Source: a virus
Taxonomy: Duplodnaviria; Heunggongvirae; Uroviricota; Caudoviricetes
Length of the DNA: 24,154 bases
Strand: one strand, 5' to 3'
IMG/VR virus record: IMGVR_UViG_2684622510_000004
Shown here: in pieces, positions 1 to 7,125 of the stretch
Layout of the letters: every line of letters begins with the position of its first letter
Position numbering within the stretch: the first letter of the stretch is position 1
Translations under genes and position numbers: made by a program
Notes under the pieces: generated by a model
What the model was told of the DNA's origin: nothing
Databases searched by the model: none
Seen by the model: the letters and a program-made list of their open reading frames with translations, nothing else

Positions 1-1203
1 ATGTCTCTTCGTTTCAGACAAACCTTTACTCTATTTCCTGGCGTTCGACTCAACATTGGCAAGCGTGGAATAAGTGCAAGCATTGGCGTGCCTGGCGCAA
101 CTGTCAATGTTGGTAAAAAAGGGGTTAGAGCAACTGTCGGATTACCGGGCACAGGCTTATCTTATACTACACCTACCTTGCCCTATGATGATGGATACTC
201 AGTTACCAATCCATTAAATCCAGCCCCTACAGAACCTCATTTGGGGTCTGGGTCATCTCCAGAAAATACACCATCGAACGCTAAAATATATATGCCTGTA
301 GCTGGCATGAATGAAATATCCAGCGCTTCGGTAGAAGTCCTTACAAGTACCTCCCTTTTACCTTTACGAGATTTGATTGCTAAAGCACGAGAACAAAGAG
401 CAGAAATAAAAGCAGATCTTCAAGAGGCTCTTGCCGAAGAATCAAAACAAAAAAGCGAGCTAGCTCGACGCAAATCAAGTCTATTCCGTTGGTTTTACAA
501 ACGACGCATCGCAGAACTTGAGACACTACTCCCCCTAACCCAAGCTGAGATATCTCGCCTAGTTTCATGGGAAGACAGCACAAAAATAGCCATAACATTC
601 GAGAGCAGTGATGCTTCACAGCGCGCATATGCAGCGATGGTCCATGCATTTGATATGTTAAAATCGAGTGTCAAAAAATGGGATATTACTGCAGATAAAG
701 CTACAGACCAGTTTGCTGAAAGAACATTAGCAACCCGGTCTGTTAATCGTCACCCAGTTACCTTTGATTTTAGTTCAACGGATCTCATTCAATTTACAGG
801 GCGTGCGATGAGGTTTGAAAATGTGAATGGAGACGATATTTTGCTTTATCCTGGAGTTGCAGTCATACCACGAGCTGATGGAGCATTCGCTCTGATTGAT
901 TTACGCGAATTACAAATTAGTTCAGAATATCTAAGATTCCATGAGGAAGAAGGTGTTCCCAGTGACTCACGCATAGATGGTTATACATGGGCGAAAACGA
1001 ATAAGAATGGCTCACCAGACCGTCGTTTTAAAGATAACTACCAAATCCCTATTTGCATTTATGGAAATATTACTTTCCATTCTCAAACAGGGGTAACTGA
1101 AGAATATATGGTATCAAATGCAGATGCCGCGCACGCCTTTGCTGAGGCAGTAAAACGCTATCAGATTTCACTCACAGAAACAGAAGCGTTGGTACAGGCC
1201 TGA
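1..1203 (+). CDS. DUF4236-domain protein, function unknown
   Basis: 400-aa ORF beginning with ATG at window nt 1. N-terminal ~55 aa (MSLRFRQTFTLFPGVRLNIGKRGISASIGVPGATVNVGKKG...GLPGTGLSYT) matches the glycine-rich DUF4236 signature as I recall it; the rest is unrecognised. Confidence 0.6.
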   Translation: MSLRFRQTFTLFPGVRLNIGKRGISASIGVPGATVNVGKKGVRATVGLPGTGLSYTTPTLPYDDGYSVTNPLNPAPTEPHLGSGSSPENTPSNAKIYMPVAGMNEISSASVEVLTSTSLLPLRDLIAKAREQRAEIKADLQEALAEESKQKSELARRKSSLFRWFYKRRIAELETLLPLTQAEISRLVSWEDSTKIAITFESSDASQRAYAAMVHAFDMLKSSVKKWDITADKATDQFAERTLATRSVNRHPVTFDFSSTDLIQFTGRAMRFENVNGDDILLYPGVAVIPRADGAFALIDLRELQISSEYLRFHEEEGVPSDSRIDGYTWAKTNKNGSPDRRFKDNYQIPICIYGNITFHSQTGVTEEYMVSNADAAHAFAEAVKRYQISLTETEALVQA

Positions 1204-1466
1204 TTTATCGCCGATATGGGGACGAATCGTAGGTAACCCGTTACTTTATTCGTACCCCTTATAATGGGGTGTTAGCCAGCCAGACCCGGCATGATTACTG
1301 CCCCCAGTCGTCCATGATCCGGGGGGTGATGTCACCGGGTCTGGTGGGGCGCTGGTAACCGCTAATAGGGGTCAGGTCAGGCACTTTTGCCGGGACCGTC
1401 TGTAACGTGGATGCCGGTACCTGCTCCCCGTGGTTATCTGGTTAACCCATATACAAGGGAGACAGA
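1204..1466 (+). ncRNA. candidate IS110-family bridge (guide) RNA in the 5' noncoding end of the IS
   Basis: 263-nt GC-rich noncoding stretch upstream of the recombinase with short hairpins (e.g. ccccttataatgggg). In the IS110 subgroup the bridge RNA is encoded at this position (established knowledge, not demonstrated here). Confidence 0.3.
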
Positions 1467-2680
1467 ATGACCGAATCCAGCGATTACGAATCCGTCCAGG
1501 TCTTTATCGGCGTTGATGTCGGTAAAGATACGCATCACGCTGTAGCCATTAATCGTTCAGGTAAACGCCTGTTCGATAAAGCATTACCCAACGACGAAAA
1601 CAAACTCAGGTCGCTAATATCTGACCTGAAACAACATGGTCAGATACTGCTGGTTGTTGATCAGCCAGCTACCATCGGTGCGTTACCTGTCGCCGTTGCC
1701 CGCTCAGAAGGAGTCCTTGTCGGATACCTCCCTGGACTGGCCATGCGCCGCATAGCCGACTTACACGCCGGTGAAGCTAAAACTGATGCTCGTGACGCTG
1801 CCATCATTGCCGAAGCTGCCCGTACCCTGCCTCACGCGCTACGCACGCTGAAACTGGCTGACGAGCAAATCGCCGAACTCTCCATGCTCTGCGGCTTCGA
1901 TGATGATCTTGCCGCACAGACAACGCAGGCCAGCAACCGTATCCGCGGCCTTCTGACCCAGATACATCCGGCACTGGAGCGCGTTCTCGGTCCGAGACTT
2001 GATCACCCGGCGGTACTCGATCTTCTCCAGCGATATCCCTCACCAGAAAAACTCGCTTCGCTGGGTGAGAAGAAGCTGGCAGCCCAGCTCTGCAAACTTG
2101 CGCCTCGTCTGGGTAAACGCCTTGCAGCAGACATAGCTCAGGCACTGGCCGAACAAACCGTCGTCGTTCCCGGCACGAATGCCGCTGCCGTAGTACTGCC
2201 ACGTCTGGCACTCCAGCTCATCACGCTGCGTAAGCAAAGAGACGAGGTGGCGCTTGCGGTAGAACAGCGAGTTCTTGCTCACCCTCTTTACCCGGTCCTG
2301 ACCAGTATGCCCGGAGTCGGTGTCAGGACCGCAGCCAGACTCCTCACCGAGGTCGCCTGCCGCGCCTTCGCCTCTGCCGCGCCTTCGCCTCTGCCGCACA
2401 TCTCGCTGCTTATGCTGGCCTTGCGCCGGTAACTCGGCGATCCGGCTCGTCAATACGCGGTGAGCATCCCTCGCGACGGGGTAATAAAGCTCTCAAACGG
2501 GCGTTGTTCCTGTCGGCCTTCGCCGCGCTCAGGGATCCGCTCTCCAGGGCTTACTACACCCGCAAAATGAGTCAGGGAAAACGACACAATCAGGCGCTTA
2601 TCGCCCTGGCGAGACGACGCTGCGACGTTCTGTTCGCCATGATGCGCGACGGGACTTTTTATACCCCGCAGGCGTCATAA
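1467..2680 (+). pseudogene. IS110-family DEDD transposase/recombinase, frameshifted
   Basis: N-terminal MTESSDYESVQVFIGVDVGKDTHHAVAI... is a typical IS110 DEDD start. The ORF terminates prematurely at 2432. Removing one copy of the 17-bp duplication at 2361-2394 restores the conserved C-terminus ...AFASAAHLAAYAGLAPVTRRSGSS... running to the stop at 2678-2680. Confidence 0.7.
2361..2394. repeat. perfect 17-bp tandem duplication (cgcgccttcgcctctgc x2) inside the transposase gene
   Basis: Read directly: 2361-2377 is identical to 2378-2394. Length is not a multiple of 3, so it frameshifts the gene. Confidence 0.9.
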
Positions 2681-2717
2681 CATGCTTGACAACTTAATAG
2701 GGGCACCCCCCTAGAAC

Positions 2718-2757
2718 AAAAAAAACCTTAAGAACCAGACTATTATGGCTGGTTCTT
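2718..2757 (-). terminator. terminator-like hairpin (stem aagaaccag/ctggttctt) followed by a T8 run on the minus strand
   Basis: Stem 2730-2738 pairs with 2749-2757; A8 run at 2718-2725 on the plus strand gives a U-run after the hairpin on the minus strand. Could be the IS right end or a relic terminator. Confidence 0.35.
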
Positions 2758-2883
2758 GTACGGAGGATTTGTTATTGTACAACTCTTCTATCTGGTATAT
2801 TTACGGATAGAACTGTTCAGGCTACTCAATCCTTTTTAAGTACAAATGAACAGATAGAAATAGTTATATTGCAAGGAGCTATC

Positions 2884-3672
2884 ATGCACACTGAGTATAT
2901 ATGGCGATACCTTGACATAGAGAAATTCTCTATGTTACTCGAACAAAATGCTTTATTTTTTTGCTCAGCAAAAAATTTTGAAGATCCGTTCGAAGGTGAA
3001 TTTGCTTGGGGACATACTGGCTATAAAAAATTCATTGAGACACAGGAAAAACTATGCGCTACTTATGGTGCCGGCATGGACTTAGATCCTTTCATTGCAT
3101 TCAATTTAAAGACACTTAAGGAAATAAGCGAGAGGACATATATAAGTTGCTGGCATTGTAACGAACATGAATCTGAAGCTATGTGGAAGCTGTATTGTAA
3201 AAACCCCGCTAAAGGCGTTGTCATAAAATCAAAGAAAAAAAACCTCCAAAGCCAACTTGAAAATAATAATCTAAACAAACTACAATTAAAACACGTAAAA
3301 TACGTCAAAAATTTCTGGATAAAACAATACAATCCAGAATCAGATGTATTCTTTAACAAGAGACCATCTTTCGAATACGAAAAAGAGTTTAGAGCTATTT
3401 TTCAAGAGAATACCTTTAACACTCCACCTGTAAAGGGAAAACTAGTCCCTGTATCTCTTAATAATCTGTTGGAAGAAATAAGGATTTCACCTTTCGCAGA
3501 TAAGGATTTCAAAAATGAAGTTTTACAAATTTCAAAAAAACATGGACTAGATCTGAAAGTCAAAAACTCTGAAATTGAAATGCATCCCATCATGCATGTT
3601 GAGGAAGAAATAATTGCAGAAGGCCCCAATTGGTATCAGTCAAAAATCAGATTGGCAATACGTGATGCTTAA
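2884..3672 (+). CDS. DUF2971-like hypothetical protein (AT-rich accessory gene)
   Basis: AAGGAG at 2873-2878 with a 5-nt spacer to ATG 2884. N-terminal motif ...LFFCSAKNFEDPFEGEF resembles the DUF2971 'FxDPFE' signature. Visibly AT-rich compared with flanking genes, convergent with tfa. Confidence 0.55.
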   Translation: MHTEYIWRYLDIEKFSMLLEQNALFFCSAKNFEDPFEGEFAWGHTGYKKFIETQEKLCATYGAGMDLDPFIAFNLKTLKEISERTYISCWHCNEHESEAMWKLYCKNPAKGVVIKSKKKNLQSQLENNNLNKLQLKHVKYVKNFWIKQYNPESDVFFNKRPSFEYEKEFRAIFQENTFNTPPVKGKLVPVSLNNLLEEIRISPFADKDFKNEVLQISKKHGLDLKVKNSEIEMHPIMHVEEEIIAEGPNWYQSKIRLAIRDA

Positions 3673-3775: not shown

Positions 3776-4360
3776 TTACTCCATAACAGGGACAGCAGGC
3801 CACTCAATATCAGGTGCAGTTGATGTATCAACACGGTTCAGCAACACCCGATACTTTTTCCAGGCTTCCAGCAACGAGGTTTCTCCCTCCGTTGCGATTT
3901 CCAGATCTGCAGCATCCTGAAGTGGCGCAATATGCTCACTGGCTACCTGCATCAGGCTATTTTTTGTTTCTTCCGCCTCCCGGATCCGGAACAGTTTTTC
4001 TGCTTCTGCATCTTTCACCCAGGTTGTGCCGTTCCACTTCTGAAACTCCCCTTCCGGGGATAACCAGGTGACATTTTCCGGTAATGAGCCGAGTTCAGAA
4101 ATAAATAACGCGTCGCCGGAAGCCACGTCATAGACGGTTTTACCCCGATGGTCTTCAACGAGATGCCACGATGCCTCATCACTGTTGAAAACAGCCACAA
4201 AGCCAGCCGGAATATCTGGCGGTTCAATATCGGTACTGTTTGCTGGCAGACCTGTATGAGGCGGAATATATGCGTCACCTTCACCAATAAATTCATTAGT
4301 TCCGGCCAGCAGATTATAAATTTTTATGGTCCGTGGTTGTTCACTCATTCTGAATGCCAT
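3776..4360 (-). CDS. tfa: tail fiber assembly protein (Tfa family)
   Basis: 194-aa product [34 protein letters not shown]... typical of lambdoid Tfa chaperones. ATG overlaps the stf stop (TAATG) at 4358-4362. Confidence 0.85.
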
Positions 4361-7125
4361 TATGCAAGCCTCACAATGTAGTTAAATGCGATGTTTTTGA
4401 CGGTGTTTTCCGCGTTACCAGCAGCGTTAACGGTGATGGTGTGTCCATGTGAGCCAATCGCAACAGAGTGCGTATGAGCACCAATACCGACAGTATGTGC
4501 GTGAGCACCTGCAGATGCAGCTGTGCCGCTGACACTATGAGTGTGCGCTCCTGCAGCACTTGTATTCACACTGGCCGCAGACACTACCTTATGTACTGAC
4601 CCATTTTGTGACCACTGGCTGACTGCTGATGCGCCTGTGACACTATGAGTATGGTTTCCGGCACTTGCGGCTGTACCGCTCACACTGTGCGTATGCGCCC
4701 CGGTGTTATTCGTGGATTTAGTGCCGTAATCAAACGACGATGTGGTTTTCGTCCCCAAATCCGTACTGGATGCGCTGGCGCTGTGGGTGTGCGATTTAAT
4801 GCCGTCCTGTTCCTGAGACAATACGGCCCGACCACTGGCAGGTTTGCCCTTAATCGTCCAGCCACGCATATCAGGGATCACGCCTGACGGATAAGCGGTT
4901 GCAAGTTTCGGGTAAGCAGATTTGTCAAAAGTCTGCCCCTGCATCAGGGCATAACCAGACGGAACGGTATCTGATGGCCACGGGATTGGTGCGCCAGGCG
5001 GATAAAACTGCTCTGATGGCGTATAGAGTGAATAAACTGTACCGTCCGTTAACCCTTCCGGCTTATTAGCAGAATATGCTGGTGACGTATGAATAGTCAC
5101 GCTGGCATTACTGGTATAATCCCATTGAATATTTACACCAGTCGCATAATTTCCGATTGCAACGTAAATATCGTAAGTATCACCAGATGTATTGACCCAG
5201 GCAAAATTTGTAAACCCTGTCGATGTGCGCTGCCATAAAGCACCAGTAATCCCCTTCGGATTACCATTACCTGCACGCAAAACAAGTTCAGATATACCTG
5301 CCTGTTGAGGTGACCCCACGTTAAATCCCGCGCCACCAATCAACGTAATTGAAACAACAGAACTCGCCTGTGGCATGGTTACCGTTGCTAATTTGAACCA
5401 ACCAGCACCACCGCTGAATGACATTGTTGTTGAGTTAAGCGTACCAATATCTTTCGGCGTCAGTGTTATATCCGCTGAAAGCGCCTTACCATTCACCTTA
5501 CGGGCAGAAGGTACCCGACCATTCGCATTATCATTAGCTGCTTTCACTGCTTTCGGTGTCGCGGCAAGCGTTTCAGATGCGCTGTTGGTTGCACTACTGA
5601 GCTGGACAATTCCTTTTTGTGCTGTCGTAGCGTCCTGAGCGGTATATTTCCCGTTAGCAAGGTCATAGGCTGCCTTTACCGACTTTGGCGTTGCCGCCAG
5701 CATTTCAGATGTGCTGTTGGTCGCGCTGCTGAGCTGAACTATCCCTTTCTGTGCTGTCGTTGCATCCTGTGCGGTGTATTTCCCGTTAGCCAGGTCATAC
5801 GCGGCCTTAACGGCTTTTGGCGTTGCCGCCAGTGACTCGGAAGTGCTGTTAGTCGCACTGCTGAGCTGTACTATCCCCTTTTTCGTCGTGCTCGCATCCT
5901 CAAGCGCCACGGCGGATGCAATATCCTCTGCCCGTTTTGCCGCTGTCTCAGCGCGCGTTGCTGCGGATTCTGCCGTACTTTTGCTCTGTGCTGCCGCTGC
6001 CGCACTGCCAGCAGCCTCTGTCGCCTTCGTGGATGCCGTCGTGGCGCTGCCCCTCGCTGCTGACGCCTGTCTGGTCGCCTCATCTTTTGAAGCAGACGCC
6101 GATGAGGCCGATGACGCCGCCGAACTGGCGGACGATGCGGCAGCCGTTTTTGAGGATTCTGCGCTGGTTTCCGACGCTTTCGCGTTCGTTTCGGATGTCT
6201 TCGCTGCGGAAGCTGACCTCGCTGCTGCGCTGGCCTGTTCAGTGGCTTCGCCAGCCTTCGTTGTGGCTGTTGAAGCGGATGATGCGGCGCTTTCTGCCGA
6301 TTTTCCGGCGGCGATGGCACTGGCTGAGGCCTGTCCGGCACTTGTTGACGCGGCACTGGCAGACGACGCAGCCGCTGTTTTTGAGCCTGCCGCAGCTGAG
6401 GCGCTCTGTCCCGCTGCCGTCTCAGAAGACCTGGCGTTTGTCTCAGACGTCCTTGCCGCCTTCGCGGAATTTCCTGCCGCCGTTGCCGAGGAAGCTGCAC
6501 TACTGGCGCTTGATGATGCGTTCGTTTCTGATGATTTTGCCGCCTCTTTTGAAGCCGACGCATCCCAGGCTGAGGTGGCAGCTTCTGACGCTTTCGTGGT
6601 CGCGGTGGATGCAGAAGTGGCGGCTGATTGTTCTGACGCTGCCGCATTCGTTTCTGACGTTTTCGCCGCACCGGCACTGGTAGCCGCCGCGCTTTTTGAG
6701 GACTCTGCAGCGGCAGCACTTTTTGAGGCTTCAGTGGCCTTTGTTGATGCCGTTCCTGCGCTGGAAGACGCTGACTGAGCCGACGACGCGGCCTGTCCGG
6801 CTGACGTGCTGGCTGCACGTGCTGAATCTGCAGCATCAGTCGCACGGGTTGCCGCCTCACTGGCAGATGTGCTGGCATCACTGGCTGACTTCTTTGCGGC
6901 TGCCGTGTTCTGTGCCACCACGGACGCGTTACGCGCCACCTCTTCCACCATCAGTTCAAAACGACGCAGTGCCTCCGGACGGGCATCATCCTCCGTCATG
7001 GCACCGAGAAAATCATTCAGCGTACCGGGTTGAGAATCTTCATACACGGTGATGGTCCCGGCATGTGACGGCGGGAATCCCTCCACCAACAGAATAACGC
7101 TGTACTGACCGTACTCAACGTCCAT
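4360..7125 (-). CDS. stf: side tail fiber protein (Stf-like), N-terminally truncated remnant
   Basis: 921-aa Ala/Ser-rich product with three 44-aa tail-fibre repeats ([37 protein letters not shown]) and a His-rich [10 protein letters not shown]-terminus. The first in-frame Met (MDVEYGQYS) corresponds to an internal position of full-length Stf, and an in-frame stop lies 5 codons upstream. Confidence 0.8.
5500..5895. repeat. three tandem ~132-bp repeats inside stf
   Basis: Period 132 bp read directly (e.g. gctgttgg at 5581-5588 and 5713-5720; gtgctgtt at 5711-5718 and 5843-5850). These encode the repeated 44-aa tail-fibre units. Confidence 0.75.

What the first reader, a model, noticed from the sequence alone, without database searches (positions are those of the whole stretch)
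1204..2760. IS110-family element with a candidate bridge RNA leader, inactivated by a perfect 17-bp tandem duplication
The transposase ORF stops early at 2432 because a 17-bp unit (cgcgccttcgcctctgc) is exactly duplicated at 2361-2394. Deleting one copy restores the conserved IS110 C-terminus through to the stop at 2680. The 263-nt GC-rich noncoding leader upstream is where IS110-type elements encode their bridge RNA. A perfect short duplication suggests a recent slippage event, or possibly a sequencing or assembly artefact.
Basis: partly seen in the sequence, partly recalled or inferred. Interest (0 to 1): 0.5.

Follow-up and report, generated by a model that had tools for sequence, protein, structure and literature searches.

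The report
Frameshifted ISEc20 copy with intact bridge RNA
This is a copy of the known E. coli insertion sequence ISEc20 whose RNA-guided recombinase gene was broken by a real, inherited 17-base duplication while its guide ("bridge") RNA gene stayed intact; it is an ordinary decayed mobile element.

Summary
A 17-bp unit is exactly duplicated at 2361-2377/2378-2394. It ends the ORF at 2432, and removing one copy restores a 398-aa IS110-family recombinase ending at 2680.

The element is ISEc20 (IS110 family), present in 1,561 of 5,426 complete E. coli genomes. Apart from the duplication, this copy differs from the common copy by one SNP. Its true limits are about 1240-2705 plus flanking C runs, not 1204-2760.

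The duplication is not an artefact. The exact truncated protein and identical DNA occur in at least five independent assemblies at the same locus, and the protein is deposited as OAC06722.1. The duplication lies between pre-existing 7-bp repeats (CTGCCGC) spaced 17 bp apart, a classic slippage substrate. The frameshift removes the catalytic serine (S320, equivalent to IS621 S241).

The leader encodes a genuine bridge RNA of about 177 nt (about 1254-1430):
- Nineteen base pairs show compensatory change across 59 relatives.
- A covariance model built without any E. coli sequence hits 1278-1430 (E = 4e-27).
- The loops carry sequences matching the element's ends and its poly-C target.

Everything here belongs to a known kind, so interest is low. 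The exact core dinucleotide remains unresolved.

The parts
1..1203 (+). Host (prophage) gene for a DUF4236 protein. It forms the left flank and is not part of the element.
   Evidence: ORF listed. Pfam PF14020 match, E = 3e-21. RefSeq annotation of the empty site.
1237..1239 (+). The CCC run abutting the left end. It is the target-derived left half-site and holds the left copy of the crossover (core) dinucleotide under either reading.
   Evidence: In 76 related elements the left flank ends in C(1-8) directly before GTTAC.
1240..2705 (+). ISEc20 body, GTTAC...AATAGGGGCA. It is 1,466 bp here and 1,449 bp without the duplication.
   Evidence: Megablast to 1,582 E. coli records annotated as ISEc20. 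The ends were defined by comparing copies in about 25 different contexts. The copy differs from common copies by 1 SNP plus the duplication.
1242..1247 (+). TACTTT, a candidate -10 hexamer of the promoter that is completed only in the excised circle. This is inferred, not shown.
   Evidence: It would lie 17-18 nt from TTGACA (2686-2691) across the RE-LE junction. Both hexamer positions are conserved in relatives. By analogy with IS621 (PMC11208160).
1254..1270 (+). The 5' stem-loop of the bridge RNA (ACCCC-UUAUAAU-GGGGU).
   Evidence: Predicted by the single-sequence fold. Relatives show compensatory variants: GCCUC/GAGGC, ACCUU/AAGGU and UCCUC/GAGGA.
1278..1346 (+). Target-binding stem-loop. 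The outer stem is 1280-1289 paired with 1335-1344. The left target guide is about 1295-1307 (UUACUGCCCCCAG). The right target guide is 1321-1328 (GGGGGGUG).
   Evidence: A 10-bp perfect inverted repeat, I3. Seven of 15 stem pairs show compensatory changes. The C5 and G6 runs match the poly-C flanks of all copies. The guide triplet covaries with the left flank.
1347..1430 (+). Donor-binding stem-loop. The outer stem is about 1347-1362 paired with 1407-1428. The left donor guide is 1363-1374 (UAAUAGGGGUCA). The inner hairpin is 1375-1397. The right donor guide is 1402-1409 (GUAACGUG).
   Evidence: TAATAGGGG at 1363-1371 equals the right end at 2695-2703 (D8). GTAACG is the reverse complement of CGTTAC at 1239-1244. 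The G/A guide position covaries with the right end: 29 G:G, 7 A:A, 0 discordant. Eight of 12 outer-stem pairs show compensatory changes.
1467..2432 (+). Truncated recombinase ORF of 321 aa. It keeps the RuvC-like DEDD domain and the coiled coil, then reads 16 out-of-frame residues after A305.
   Evidence: ORF. PF01548 matches residues 14-168 and PF02371 is absent. NF033542 is covered only over positions 1-249 of 343.
2357..2397 (+). The slippage site: three copies of the 7-bp repeat CTGCCGC (2357, 2374, 2391) framing the 17-bp tandem duplication at 2361-2377/2378-2394.
   Evidence: Intact copies carry two CTGCCGC repeats 17 bp apart and a single unit.
2441..2443 (+). Codon of the catalytic serine S320 (the SGS motif), now out of frame.
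   Evidence: BLASTP alignment to IS621 places S241 opposite S320. The role of S241 is from PMC11208158. The codon position was computed.
2433..2680 (+). The orphaned 3' part of the recombinase gene (rest of the Tnp domain), readable only in the original frame. The original stop is at 2678-2680.
   Evidence: The repaired translation. PF02371 matches residues 277-358 of the repaired protein.
2681..2705 (+). The right end (RE). It holds TTGACA (2686-2691, a candidate -35) and the terminal TAATAGGGGCA.
   Evidence: Conserved in ISEc20 copies and, as GCTTGAC(A/G)...ATAGGG(G/A)CA, in relatives.
2706..2711 (+). The CCCCCC run abutting the right end. It is the target right half-site, complementary to the G6 of the right target guide.
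   Evidence: The right flank begins with C5-C7 in nearly all copies. The same C run is present at empty sites.

Best explanation
Window positions about 1240-2705 hold one copy of the known IS110-family insertion sequence ISEc20. It sits in a poly-C tract between two prophage accessory genes.

Like IS621, the element encodes two things. The first is a bridge RNA of about 177 nt in its left end, with one loop that pairs with the target (a C run) and one loop that pairs with the element's own joined ends. The second is a DEDD/serine recombinase that uses that RNA to recombine the circularised element with the target.

In this lineage, replication slippage between two 7-bp repeats (CTGCCGC) spaced 17 bp apart duplicated the 17 bp between them. 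That shifted the frame after residue 305 and removed the catalytic serine and the rest of the Tnp domain.

The copy therefore cannot make active recombinase. Its bridge RNA gene and both ends are unchanged. It is a recently inactivated, vertically inherited element.

Shown here:
- the identity of the element;
- the duplication and that it is real;
- the loss of the catalytic region;
- the conserved RNA fold and the guide matches.

Inferred:
- slippage as the cause;
- loss of activity, by analogy with the IS621 S241A mutant;
- the junction promoter;
- that the element is now immobile unless complemented in trans.
For: Identity:
- Megablast finds ISEc20-annotated copies in 1,561 of 5,426 complete E. 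coli genomes.
- The copy differs from the common copy by one SNP (2257; E264A) plus the duplication.
- The repaired protein matches PF01548 and PF02371 and NF033542 at 237.8 bits.
- PDB hits are the IS621 and ISCro4 transposases.

Reality of the duplication:
- The exact 321-aa product is on 12 contigs: GCA_001282195.1 and Logan assemblies of SRR19178691, ERR4784018, ERR4790996 and ERR3649961.
- All are at the same locus.
- Their DNA is identical to the window including the duplication, and one carries a separate SNP.
- The protein is deposited as OAC06722.1.

Slippage substrate: the 7-bp repeats CTGCCGC lie at 2357, 2374 and 2391.

Loss of the catalytic residue: S320 aligns with IS621 S241, and mutating S241 abolishes recombination (PMC11208158).

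Bridge RNA:
- The leader is identical in 30 ISEc20 copies.
- In 59 distinct leaders from relatives, 98% of cells are paired, against 35-52% when partners are slid.
- Nineteen pairs show double changes, against 3-7 in slid controls, and 0 of 500 shuffles reach the observed values.
- A covariance model built only from non-E. coli relatives hits 1278-1430 at 144 bits, E = 3.9e-27.
- The left donor guide repeats the right end (D8), with G/A covariation of 29:0:0:7.
- The left-target-guide triplet covaries with left flanks (1 of 5,000 permutations).
- Durrant et al. already list ISEc20/ISSfl4 among IS110-group elements labelled 'LE'.
Against: - No raw reads were inspected. Independence of the assemblies is inferred from different accessions, different contig ends and one SNP.
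- Transcription of the bridge RNA from this integrated copy is not shown. No sigma-70-like promoter was found in 1000-2900, and the candidate junction -10 (TACTTT) matches the consensus at only 3 of 6 positions.
- Rfam has no matching family.
- The core dinucleotide could not be fixed (CC versus AC).
- No extant empty-site allele equals the allele predicted by strictly conservative insertion.
- This copy's left half-site (TAA+C3) matches the left target guide (CUG+C5) poorly.
Confidence: 0.93

Rival explanations
1. The 17-bp duplication is a sequencing or assembly artefact, and the real genome carries an intact ISEc20.
For: The duplication junction is absent from all 5,426 complete E. coli genomes, from GTDB representative genomes and from IMG/VR. 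A perfect short tandem in GC-rich DNA is a pattern that artefacts can produce.
Against: The same duplication, in identical DNA, is present in at least five independently produced assemblies: one NCBI WGS and four Logan assemblies of different runs. Their contig ends differ and one has an additional SNP. The product is a deposited GenBank protein. An assembler error would not recur identically across different data sets.
Confidence: 0.02
2. The truncation is functional. The 321-aa RuvC-plus-coiled-coil protein would be a selected product, for example a dominant-negative regulator or an RNA-binding partner. Alternatively, the duplication would be a reversible on/off switch that reverts by slippage.
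For: The truncated product keeps the whole DEDD domain and the dimerising coiled coil. Tandem duplications flanked by repeats can revert precisely, by established knowledge of slipped-strand mispairing. The bridge RNA gene and the ends are untouched.
Against: - The allele is confined to one locus in one lineage.
- No revertant at this locus was seen among the 12 contigs.
- Other truncated ISEc20 proteins in the same cluster break at different places, so this is not a recurrent switch point.
- The assemblies read straight through the IS in short-read contigs. This suggests no second ISEc20 copy for a regulator to act on (an inference).
Confidence: 0.04
3. The structured leader is not a guide RNA. 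It would instead be a cis-regulatory 5' UTR (a translational or attenuation element) of the recombinase gene.
For: It lies directly upstream of the ORF, on the same strand, and ends 25 nt before the ribosome-binding site. No transcript ends were measured.
Against: - The two internal loops contain the element's own right-end sequence, the complement of its left end, and the C5 and G6 runs that match the target.
- The donor-guide position changes together with the right end in 36 of 36 elements.
- The target-guide triplet tracks the flanks.
- The architecture (5' hairpin followed by two stem-loops with internal loops, about 177 nt) equals that of the experimentally proven IS621 bridge RNA.
- A UTR has no reason to copy the element's termini.
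Confidence: 0.02

Closest known systems
ISEc20 (and its isoform ISSfl4 of Shigella), IS110 family, IS110 group
   Same: It is the same element. All 1,449 bp align, with 1 SNP relative to the common E. coli copy. The 398-aa recombinase is WP_001358663.1 apart from E264A. The leader, the ends and the poly-C target preference are identical.
   Different: This copy carries the 17-bp tandem duplication that truncates the recombinase. It sits at an insertion site not seen in any complete E. coli genome.
IS621 and its bridge RNA (Durrant et al. 2024, PMC11208160; Hiraizumi et al. 2024, PMC11208158)
   Same: - The recombinase has a DEDD RuvC domain, a coiled coil and a Tnp domain with an SG(S) nucleophile motif.
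- The RNA is encoded in the left end and is about 177 nt.
- The RNA has a 5' hairpin, a target-binding loop and a donor-binding loop.
- The -35 hexamer lies in the right end.
- There are no terminal inverted repeats.
   Different: - Identity is only 36% over the Tnp domain.
- The protein is longer: 398 versus 326 aa.
- The target is a C run rather than ATCGGGCCTACGCA.
- The core is not CT (it is CC or AC, unresolved).
- Donor and target guides are almost invariant across this clade.
ISBma3 (Burkholderia) and unnamed relatives in Burkholderiales and Microbacteriaceae
   Same: Protein identity is 73-82%. The leader fold is the same, the left end begins GTTAC, the right end ends ATAGGG(G/A)CA, and the flanks are poly-C.
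   Different: The hosts and stem sequences differ, with compensatory changes. The 5' hairpin is longer in the actinobacterial members. The left-target-guide triplet varies.
IS1111-group elements with seekRNA
   Same: They share the protein family and the principle of RNA-guided target and donor recognition. This rests on my own knowledge of Siddiquee et al. 2024; I did not read that paper here.
   Different: In the IS1111 group the guide RNA lies downstream of the recombinase gene. Here it lies upstream, in the left end.

Membership tests
IS110 family (IS110 group) insertion sequence | N-terminal DEDD RuvC-like domain (Pfam PF01548) | tested here: met
   PF01548 matches residues 14-168 at E = 5e-49 in both the truncated and the repaired protein. 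D17, D107 and D110 occupy the DEDD positions aligned with IS621. The second position is D65 where IS621 has E60.
IS110 family (IS110 group) insertion sequence | C-terminal Tnp domain (PF02371) with the conserved serine nucleophile, in one ORF with the RuvC domain | tested here: not met
   As the sequence stands, the ORF ends at 2432 and lacks both PF02371 and S320. After removing one 17-bp unit the feature is met: PF02371 matches residues 277-358 and S320 aligns with IS621 S241. Membership by descent is therefore clear, but the copy is a pseudogene.
IS110 family (IS110 group) insertion sequence | No terminal inverted repeats | tested here: met
   No inverted repeat links 1240-1270 with 2680-2705.
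IS110 family (IS110 group) insertion sequence | Sequence-specific insertion, with the same short core at both junctions | tested here: inconclusive
   Insertion into C runs is clear in about 25 ISEc20 sites and 50 relatives. The core could be CC (circle junction GGGGCA-CC-GTTAC) or AC (GGGGC-AC-GTTAC). The guide registers and odd junctions support different readings (note).
ISEc20 (named element) | Near-identity in DNA and protein to the reference element | tested here: met
   One SNP in 1,449 bp against copies that RefSeq annotates as 'IS110-like element ISEc20 family transposase'. The ISfinder reference entry itself could not be consulted.
Bridge RNA (IS110-group, left-end encoded) | Conserved fold: a 5' hairpin and two stem-loops with internal loops, upstream of the recombinase gene | tested here: met
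   RNAalifold and pair counts on 59 leaders give 98% of cells paired and 19 covarying pairs, with both controls far lower. A covariance model built from non-E. coli relatives hits 1278-1430 at E = 3.9e-27.
Bridge RNA (IS110-group, left-end encoded) | The donor-binding loop matches the element's own right end (same sense) and left end (antisense) | tested here: met
   UAAUAGGGG at 1363-1371 equals 2695-2703. GUAACG at 1402-1407 is the reverse complement of 1239-1244. Covariation is G:G 29, A:A 7, discordant 0.
Bridge RNA (IS110-group, left-end encoded) | The target-binding loop matches the left flank (same sense) and the right flank (antisense) | tested here: met
   C5 in the left guide and G6 in the right guide face the C runs on both flanks in all copies. 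The variable triplet tracks the flanks: 108 matches against 91.6 +/- 5.1 expected, 1 of 5,000 permutations. For this particular copy only the right half matches well.
Bridge RNA (IS110-group, left-end encoded) | Transcription from a promoter rebuilt across the RE-LE junction, and binding to the recombinase | not testable with these tools
   Only sequence hints are available: a conserved TTGAC(A/G) in the right end, and TACT(T/A)T in the left end that would lie 17-18 nt away in the circle. No promoter-like site exists in the integrated state.
Rfam families | A match to a curated RNA family | tested here: not met
   No hit at E <= 1 in 1100-2900. Rfam 15 appears to hold no model that recognises this RNA.

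The most novel reading that the evidence does not exclude
The copy would be not simply dead but parked. Its bridge RNA gene and both ends are intact, so it could still be moved, or could supply guide RNA, if an intact ISEc20 recombinase entered the cell. In addition, the 17-bp tandem duplication, framed by 7-bp repeats, could revert precisely by slippage. That would make the recombinase gene a reversible off-state rather than a fixed pseudogene.
Probability: 0.08. Interest if true: 0.35.

Novelty: already known. Interest (0 to 1): 0.14.

Why it matters
The finding matters little beyond bookkeeping.
- The ORF at 1467-2432 should be annotated as a frameshifted ISEc20 recombinase pseudogene, not as a 'transposase'.
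- The duplication and the insertion site are a clean clonal marker for this E. coli lineage.
- The locus is a worked natural example of a bridge-RNA element losing its enzyme while keeping its guide RNA. People who mine IS110 elements for genome-editing orthologues should expect this and filter for it.

The by-products may be of more use than the finding itself. These are the clade-wide poly-C targeting, the invariant guides shared across phyla, and the odd junctions.

Tried and rejected
- Rfam search of 1100-2900 at E <= 1: no hit.
- Sigma-70 promoter and intrinsic terminator scan of 1000-2900: no site.
- Search for the duplication junction in complete E. coli genomes, GTDB representatives and IMG/VR: none found. 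This would have favoured an artefact until the exact-protein look-up found independent assemblies.
- Fixing the core dinucleotide by counting C residues at filled versus empty sites (rtcB, terminase and this site): this failed. No extant empty allele equals the allele predicted by conservative recombination. In addition, C-run lengths differ between assemblies of the same site (C5, C6 and C7 at the GACAGACC site).
- Using covariation within ISEc20 itself: impossible, because the leader is invariant in 30 copies. I therefore used relatives at 73-82% protein identity.
- Looking for recurrent breakage at the same 7-bp repeats in other truncated ISEc20 proteins of the cluster: none of the six inspected breaks there.
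- Single-sequence folding alone (z = -2.55): this is weak. It also pairs the C5 and G6 guide runs with each other, so I did not use it as evidence for the loops.
- A programmed frameshift was considered and dropped, because more than 1,100 genomes carry the single uninterrupted ORF.
Full report
**Observation.**
The 17-mer CGCGCCTTCGCCTCTGC is present twice in perfect tandem at 2361-2377 and 2378-2394. The period-17 identity extends over 2357-2397, 41 bp or 2.4 copies (TRF score 82). The ORF starting at 1467 ends with TAA at 2430-2432 and encodes 321 aa. Removing one unit gives a 398-aa ORF ending at 2680. The truncated product matches only Pfam PF01548 (DEDD_Tnp_IS110). The repaired product also matches PF02371 at residues 277-358, and it matches NCBIfam NF033542, 'IS110 family RNA-guided transposase', over 342 of 343 positions at 237.8 bits.

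**Identity and limits of the element.**
Megablast of 1150-2800 against 5,426 complete E. coli genomes finds the sequence in 1,561 of them, median one copy and up to nine, annotated throughout as 'IS110-like element ISEc20 family transposase'. Matches start at window 1234-1237 and end at 2713-2726, and intact copies are 17 bp shorter.

I compared copies in about 25 different genomic contexts, four from E. coli loci and 30 from IMG/VR contigs. This shows a constant body GTTACTTTATTC...CTTAATAGGGGCA (window 1240-2705). It is preceded by a short C run and followed by C5-C7.

Apart from the duplication, this copy differs from the commonest E. coli copy at one base (2257, E264A). The element has 57.6% G+C against 43% in its flanks. 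Its nearest non-enteric relatives are ISBma3-type elements of Burkholderia, at about 80% protein identity.

**Real allele or artefact.**
The duplication junction is absent from every complete E. coli genome, from GTDB species representatives and from IMG/VR. However, an exact-sequence look-up of the 321-aa product finds it on 12 contigs. These are NCBI assembly GCA_001282195.1 and Logan assemblies of SRR19178691, ERR4784018, ERR4790996 and ERR3649961. The neighbouring genes are always the same.

The DNA of the five places returned is identical to the window through the duplication. One place has an unrelated SNP at window 3625, and the contigs break at different points. The protein is deposited as OAC06722.1, 'transposase [Escherichia coli]'. 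Independent data sets do not reproduce the same assembly error, so the duplication is a real allele inherited within one lineage. No complete genome carries ISEc20 at this site at all.

**How the duplication arose, and what it does.**
Intact ISEc20 already has two copies of CTGCCGC spaced 17 bp apart. The window has three, at 2357, 2374 and 2391. Slipped-strand mispairing between such repeats yields exactly this product. That mechanism is an inference from established knowledge.

The frame shifts after A305, and 16 foreign residues follow. Alignment with IS621 places its nucleophile S241 and G242 opposite S320 and G321 of ISEc20. In IS621, S241 forms the covalent 5'-phosphoserine link, and mutating it abolishes recombination (PMC11208158). 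The codon of S320 (2441-2443) is now out of frame. The product keeps the RuvC-like domain and the coiled coil but cannot cleave DNA. This last point is an inference by homology.

**The bridge RNA.**
The 227-nt leader (1240-1466) is identical in 30 ISEc20 copies, so I used relatives. A scan of species-representative genomes returned 80 loci encoding recombinases 73-99% identical to the query, in Enterobacterales, Burkholderiales and Microbacteriaceae. Their leaders align throughout.

- **Fold and covariation.** On 59 distinct leaders RNAalifold predicts two long stem-loops, and 19 of 52 pairs keep pairing through changes on both sides. With the same structure, 98.0% of cells are standard pairs, against 35-52% when partners are slid by 1-3 columns. 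Nineteen pairs show double changes, against 3-7 in the slid controls, and none of 500 shuffles reaches any observed measure. A 5' hairpin (1254-1270) also shows compensatory variants.
- **Covariance model.** A model built only from the 56 non-E. coli leaders hits window 1278-1430 on the + strand, full length, at 144.3 bits and E = 3.9e-27. Nothing else in the window scores above noise.
- **Donor guides.** In the second stem-loop, UAAUAGGGG (1363-1371) repeats the last bases of the right end (2695-2703). GUAACG (1402-1407) is the reverse complement of CGTTAC at the left junction. Among 36 distinct elements, the guide reads GGGG whenever the right end reads ATAGGGGCA (29 cases). It reads GGGA whenever the end reads ATAGGGACA (7 cases, in both Oxalobacteraceae and Actinobacteria). 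There are no exceptions.
- **Target guides.** In the first stem-loop, a C5 run preceded by a variable triplet (1295-1307) and a G6 run (1321-1326) face the C runs that flank every copy. The triplet matches the three bases before the flank's C run more often than permutation allows: 108 matches against 91.6 +/- 5.1, 1 of 5,000 permutations. With relatives alone the figures are 73 against 60.5, 28 of 5,000.

This is the anatomy of the IS621 bridge RNA: a 5' hairpin, a target-binding loop and a donor-binding loop, about 177 nt, encoded in the left end (PMC11208160). A supplementary table of Durrant et al. already lists 'ISSfl4 - LE - IS110 - ISEc20;ISSfl4'. Rfam has no matching family.

**Target of this copy.**
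The element sits 36 nt after the stop of a DUF4236 gene and about 160 nt before a DUF2971 gene, on the same strand as both. Other strains carry one of two forms at this site. One is CGTAGGTTAAACCCCCCTAGAAC. The other is CGTAG-C8/C9/C10-TCGAAC. The site is therefore a length-variable poly-C tract.

The right half-site of this copy (C6) matches the right target guide perfectly. The left half-site (TAA+C3) matches the left guide (CUG+C5) poorly. No complete genome has the exact allele predicted for the pre-insertion site.

**What stays unresolved.**
I could not fix the core dinucleotide.
- **Core CC.** The register of the G+C5 in the left guide and the G6 in the right guide fits core CC, with circle junction GGGGCA-CC-GTTAC.
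- **Core AC.** Several observations fit core AC, with circle junction GGGGC-AC-GTTAC. They are the 3' GU of both right-hand guides, six copies whose right flank reads GGGGCA|CGTTA(C/T), and copies whose left junction reads ...CCAC|GTTAC (L070, L072, L120) (note).

Filled and empty alleles at rtcB, at a phage terminase gene and at this site never differ by a strictly conservative insertion. C-run lengths also differ between assemblies of one site. This affects the element's limits by 1-2 bases and nothing else in the verdict.

**Expression.**
No sigma-70-like promoter or intrinsic terminator is predicted in 1000-2900 in the integrated state. TTGACA in the right end (2686-2691) and TACTTT in the left end (1242-1247) would lie 17-18 nt apart in the excised circle. 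Both positions are conserved in relatives, as TTGAC(A/G) and TACT(A/T)T. This follows the IS621 model of a junction promoter and is inferred, not shown. In the integrated copy, any bridge RNA would depend on read-through from the DUF4236 gene.

**Consequence.**
The copy has an intact guide RNA gene and intact ends but no active enzyme. Short-read assemblies read straight through it inside contigs of 7.6 to 88.6 kb. This suggests that it is the only ISEc20 copy in these genomes, since repeats normally break such assemblies. If so, nothing can complement it, and it is a stranded, decaying element.

**Comparison and verdict.**
The element is ISEc20 itself. The bridge RNA principle, the catalytic residues and the classification of this element among left-end-encoding IS110 elements are all published. 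The truncated protein is already in GenBank. The only new items are the explanation of that truncation (a 17-bp slippage duplication) and the explicit mapping of the ISEc20 guide loops. Novelty: already known. Interest: low (0.14).

Noticed in passing
Loci L048-L127 (leaders and both junctions); window 1295-1328 and 1363-1409: The whole ISEc20/ISBma3 clade shares several features. It spans recombinases of 73-82% identity in Enterobacterales, Burkholderiales and Microbacteriaceae. The donor ends are almost the same (GTTAC...ATAGGG(G/A)CA). The C5 and G6 target guides are the same, and so are the poly-C insertion sites. The guides appear to have stayed fixed while the element crossed phyla, unlike the variable target loops described for IS621 relatives.
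   Followed up: partly
L013, L021, L037, L054/L055, L091 (right junctions); L070, L072, L120 (left junctions): Six copies have a right flank reading GGGGCA|CGTTA(C/T)..., that is, a sequence like the element's own left end in place of the usual C run. Their left flanks are normal C runs. Three copies have ...CCAC|GTTAC on the left. These look like insertions into sites recognised by the donor-type right guide, perhaps 'half-match' events as in bioRxiv 10.64898/2026.08.31.748434. They also bear on the core assignment.
   Followed up: partly
Junctions of all 76 elements: The dinucleotide before GTTAC on the left varies (CC mostly, also TC and AC). The corresponding position on the right is almost always the donor-type CA/AC, with exceptions in L005, L057, L065 and L100. 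Such asymmetry would fit inheritance of the top-strand product only. I did not test this.
   Followed up: no
Window 1225-1239 and 2706-2717; empty sites L001, L044-L047: In other E. coli strains the intergenic insertion site is a length-variable poly-C tract. The alleles seen are CGTAG-C8, CGTAG-C9 and CGTAG-C10 followed by TCGAAC, and CGTAGGTTAAAC6TAGAAC.
   Followed up: partly
L042 (NZ_CP027591.1) versus L043 and L004: A prophage terminase large-subunit gene is annotated as frameshifted in strains closely related to one that carries ISEc20 at that spot. Its sequence there is CCCGCCCCAGCAAC. The intact gene reads CCCGACCACCCCCAGCAAC, and the filled site reads CCCGCCCC|IS|CCCCCCAGCAAC. It may be an excision scar or a pre-insertion deletion allele.
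   Followed up: no
Window 2869-3672 (+): The DUF2971 gene about 160 nt downstream of the IS matches the PADLOC candidate defence family PDC-S31 (E = 1e-20). The IS now separates it from the upstream DUF4236 gene on the same strand, which could change its expression.
   Followed up: partly
Window 3776-7125 (-), 21533-22696 (+), 22711-22786 (-), 22901-24154 (-): The window is the end of a lambdoid-type prophage integrated at tRNA-Thr(CGT) next to proA. It holds a tail-fibre assembly gene, a 921-aa tail fibre with a long Ala/Ser-rich low-complexity stretch and three near-identical repeats of about 40 aa, and an integrase beside the tRNA. In strain APEC E19057 the same prophage is heavily degraded.
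   Followed up: partly
Proteins P0002 (530 aa) and P0129 (720 aa) in the ISEc20 protein cluster: Some database entries fuse the ISEc20 recombinase to neighbouring sequence. One carries an added PF05930 AlpA-type domain. Another is named 'mechanosensitive channel protein' in Shigella boydii. They are probably read-through or annotation fusions at insertion sites.
   Followed up: no
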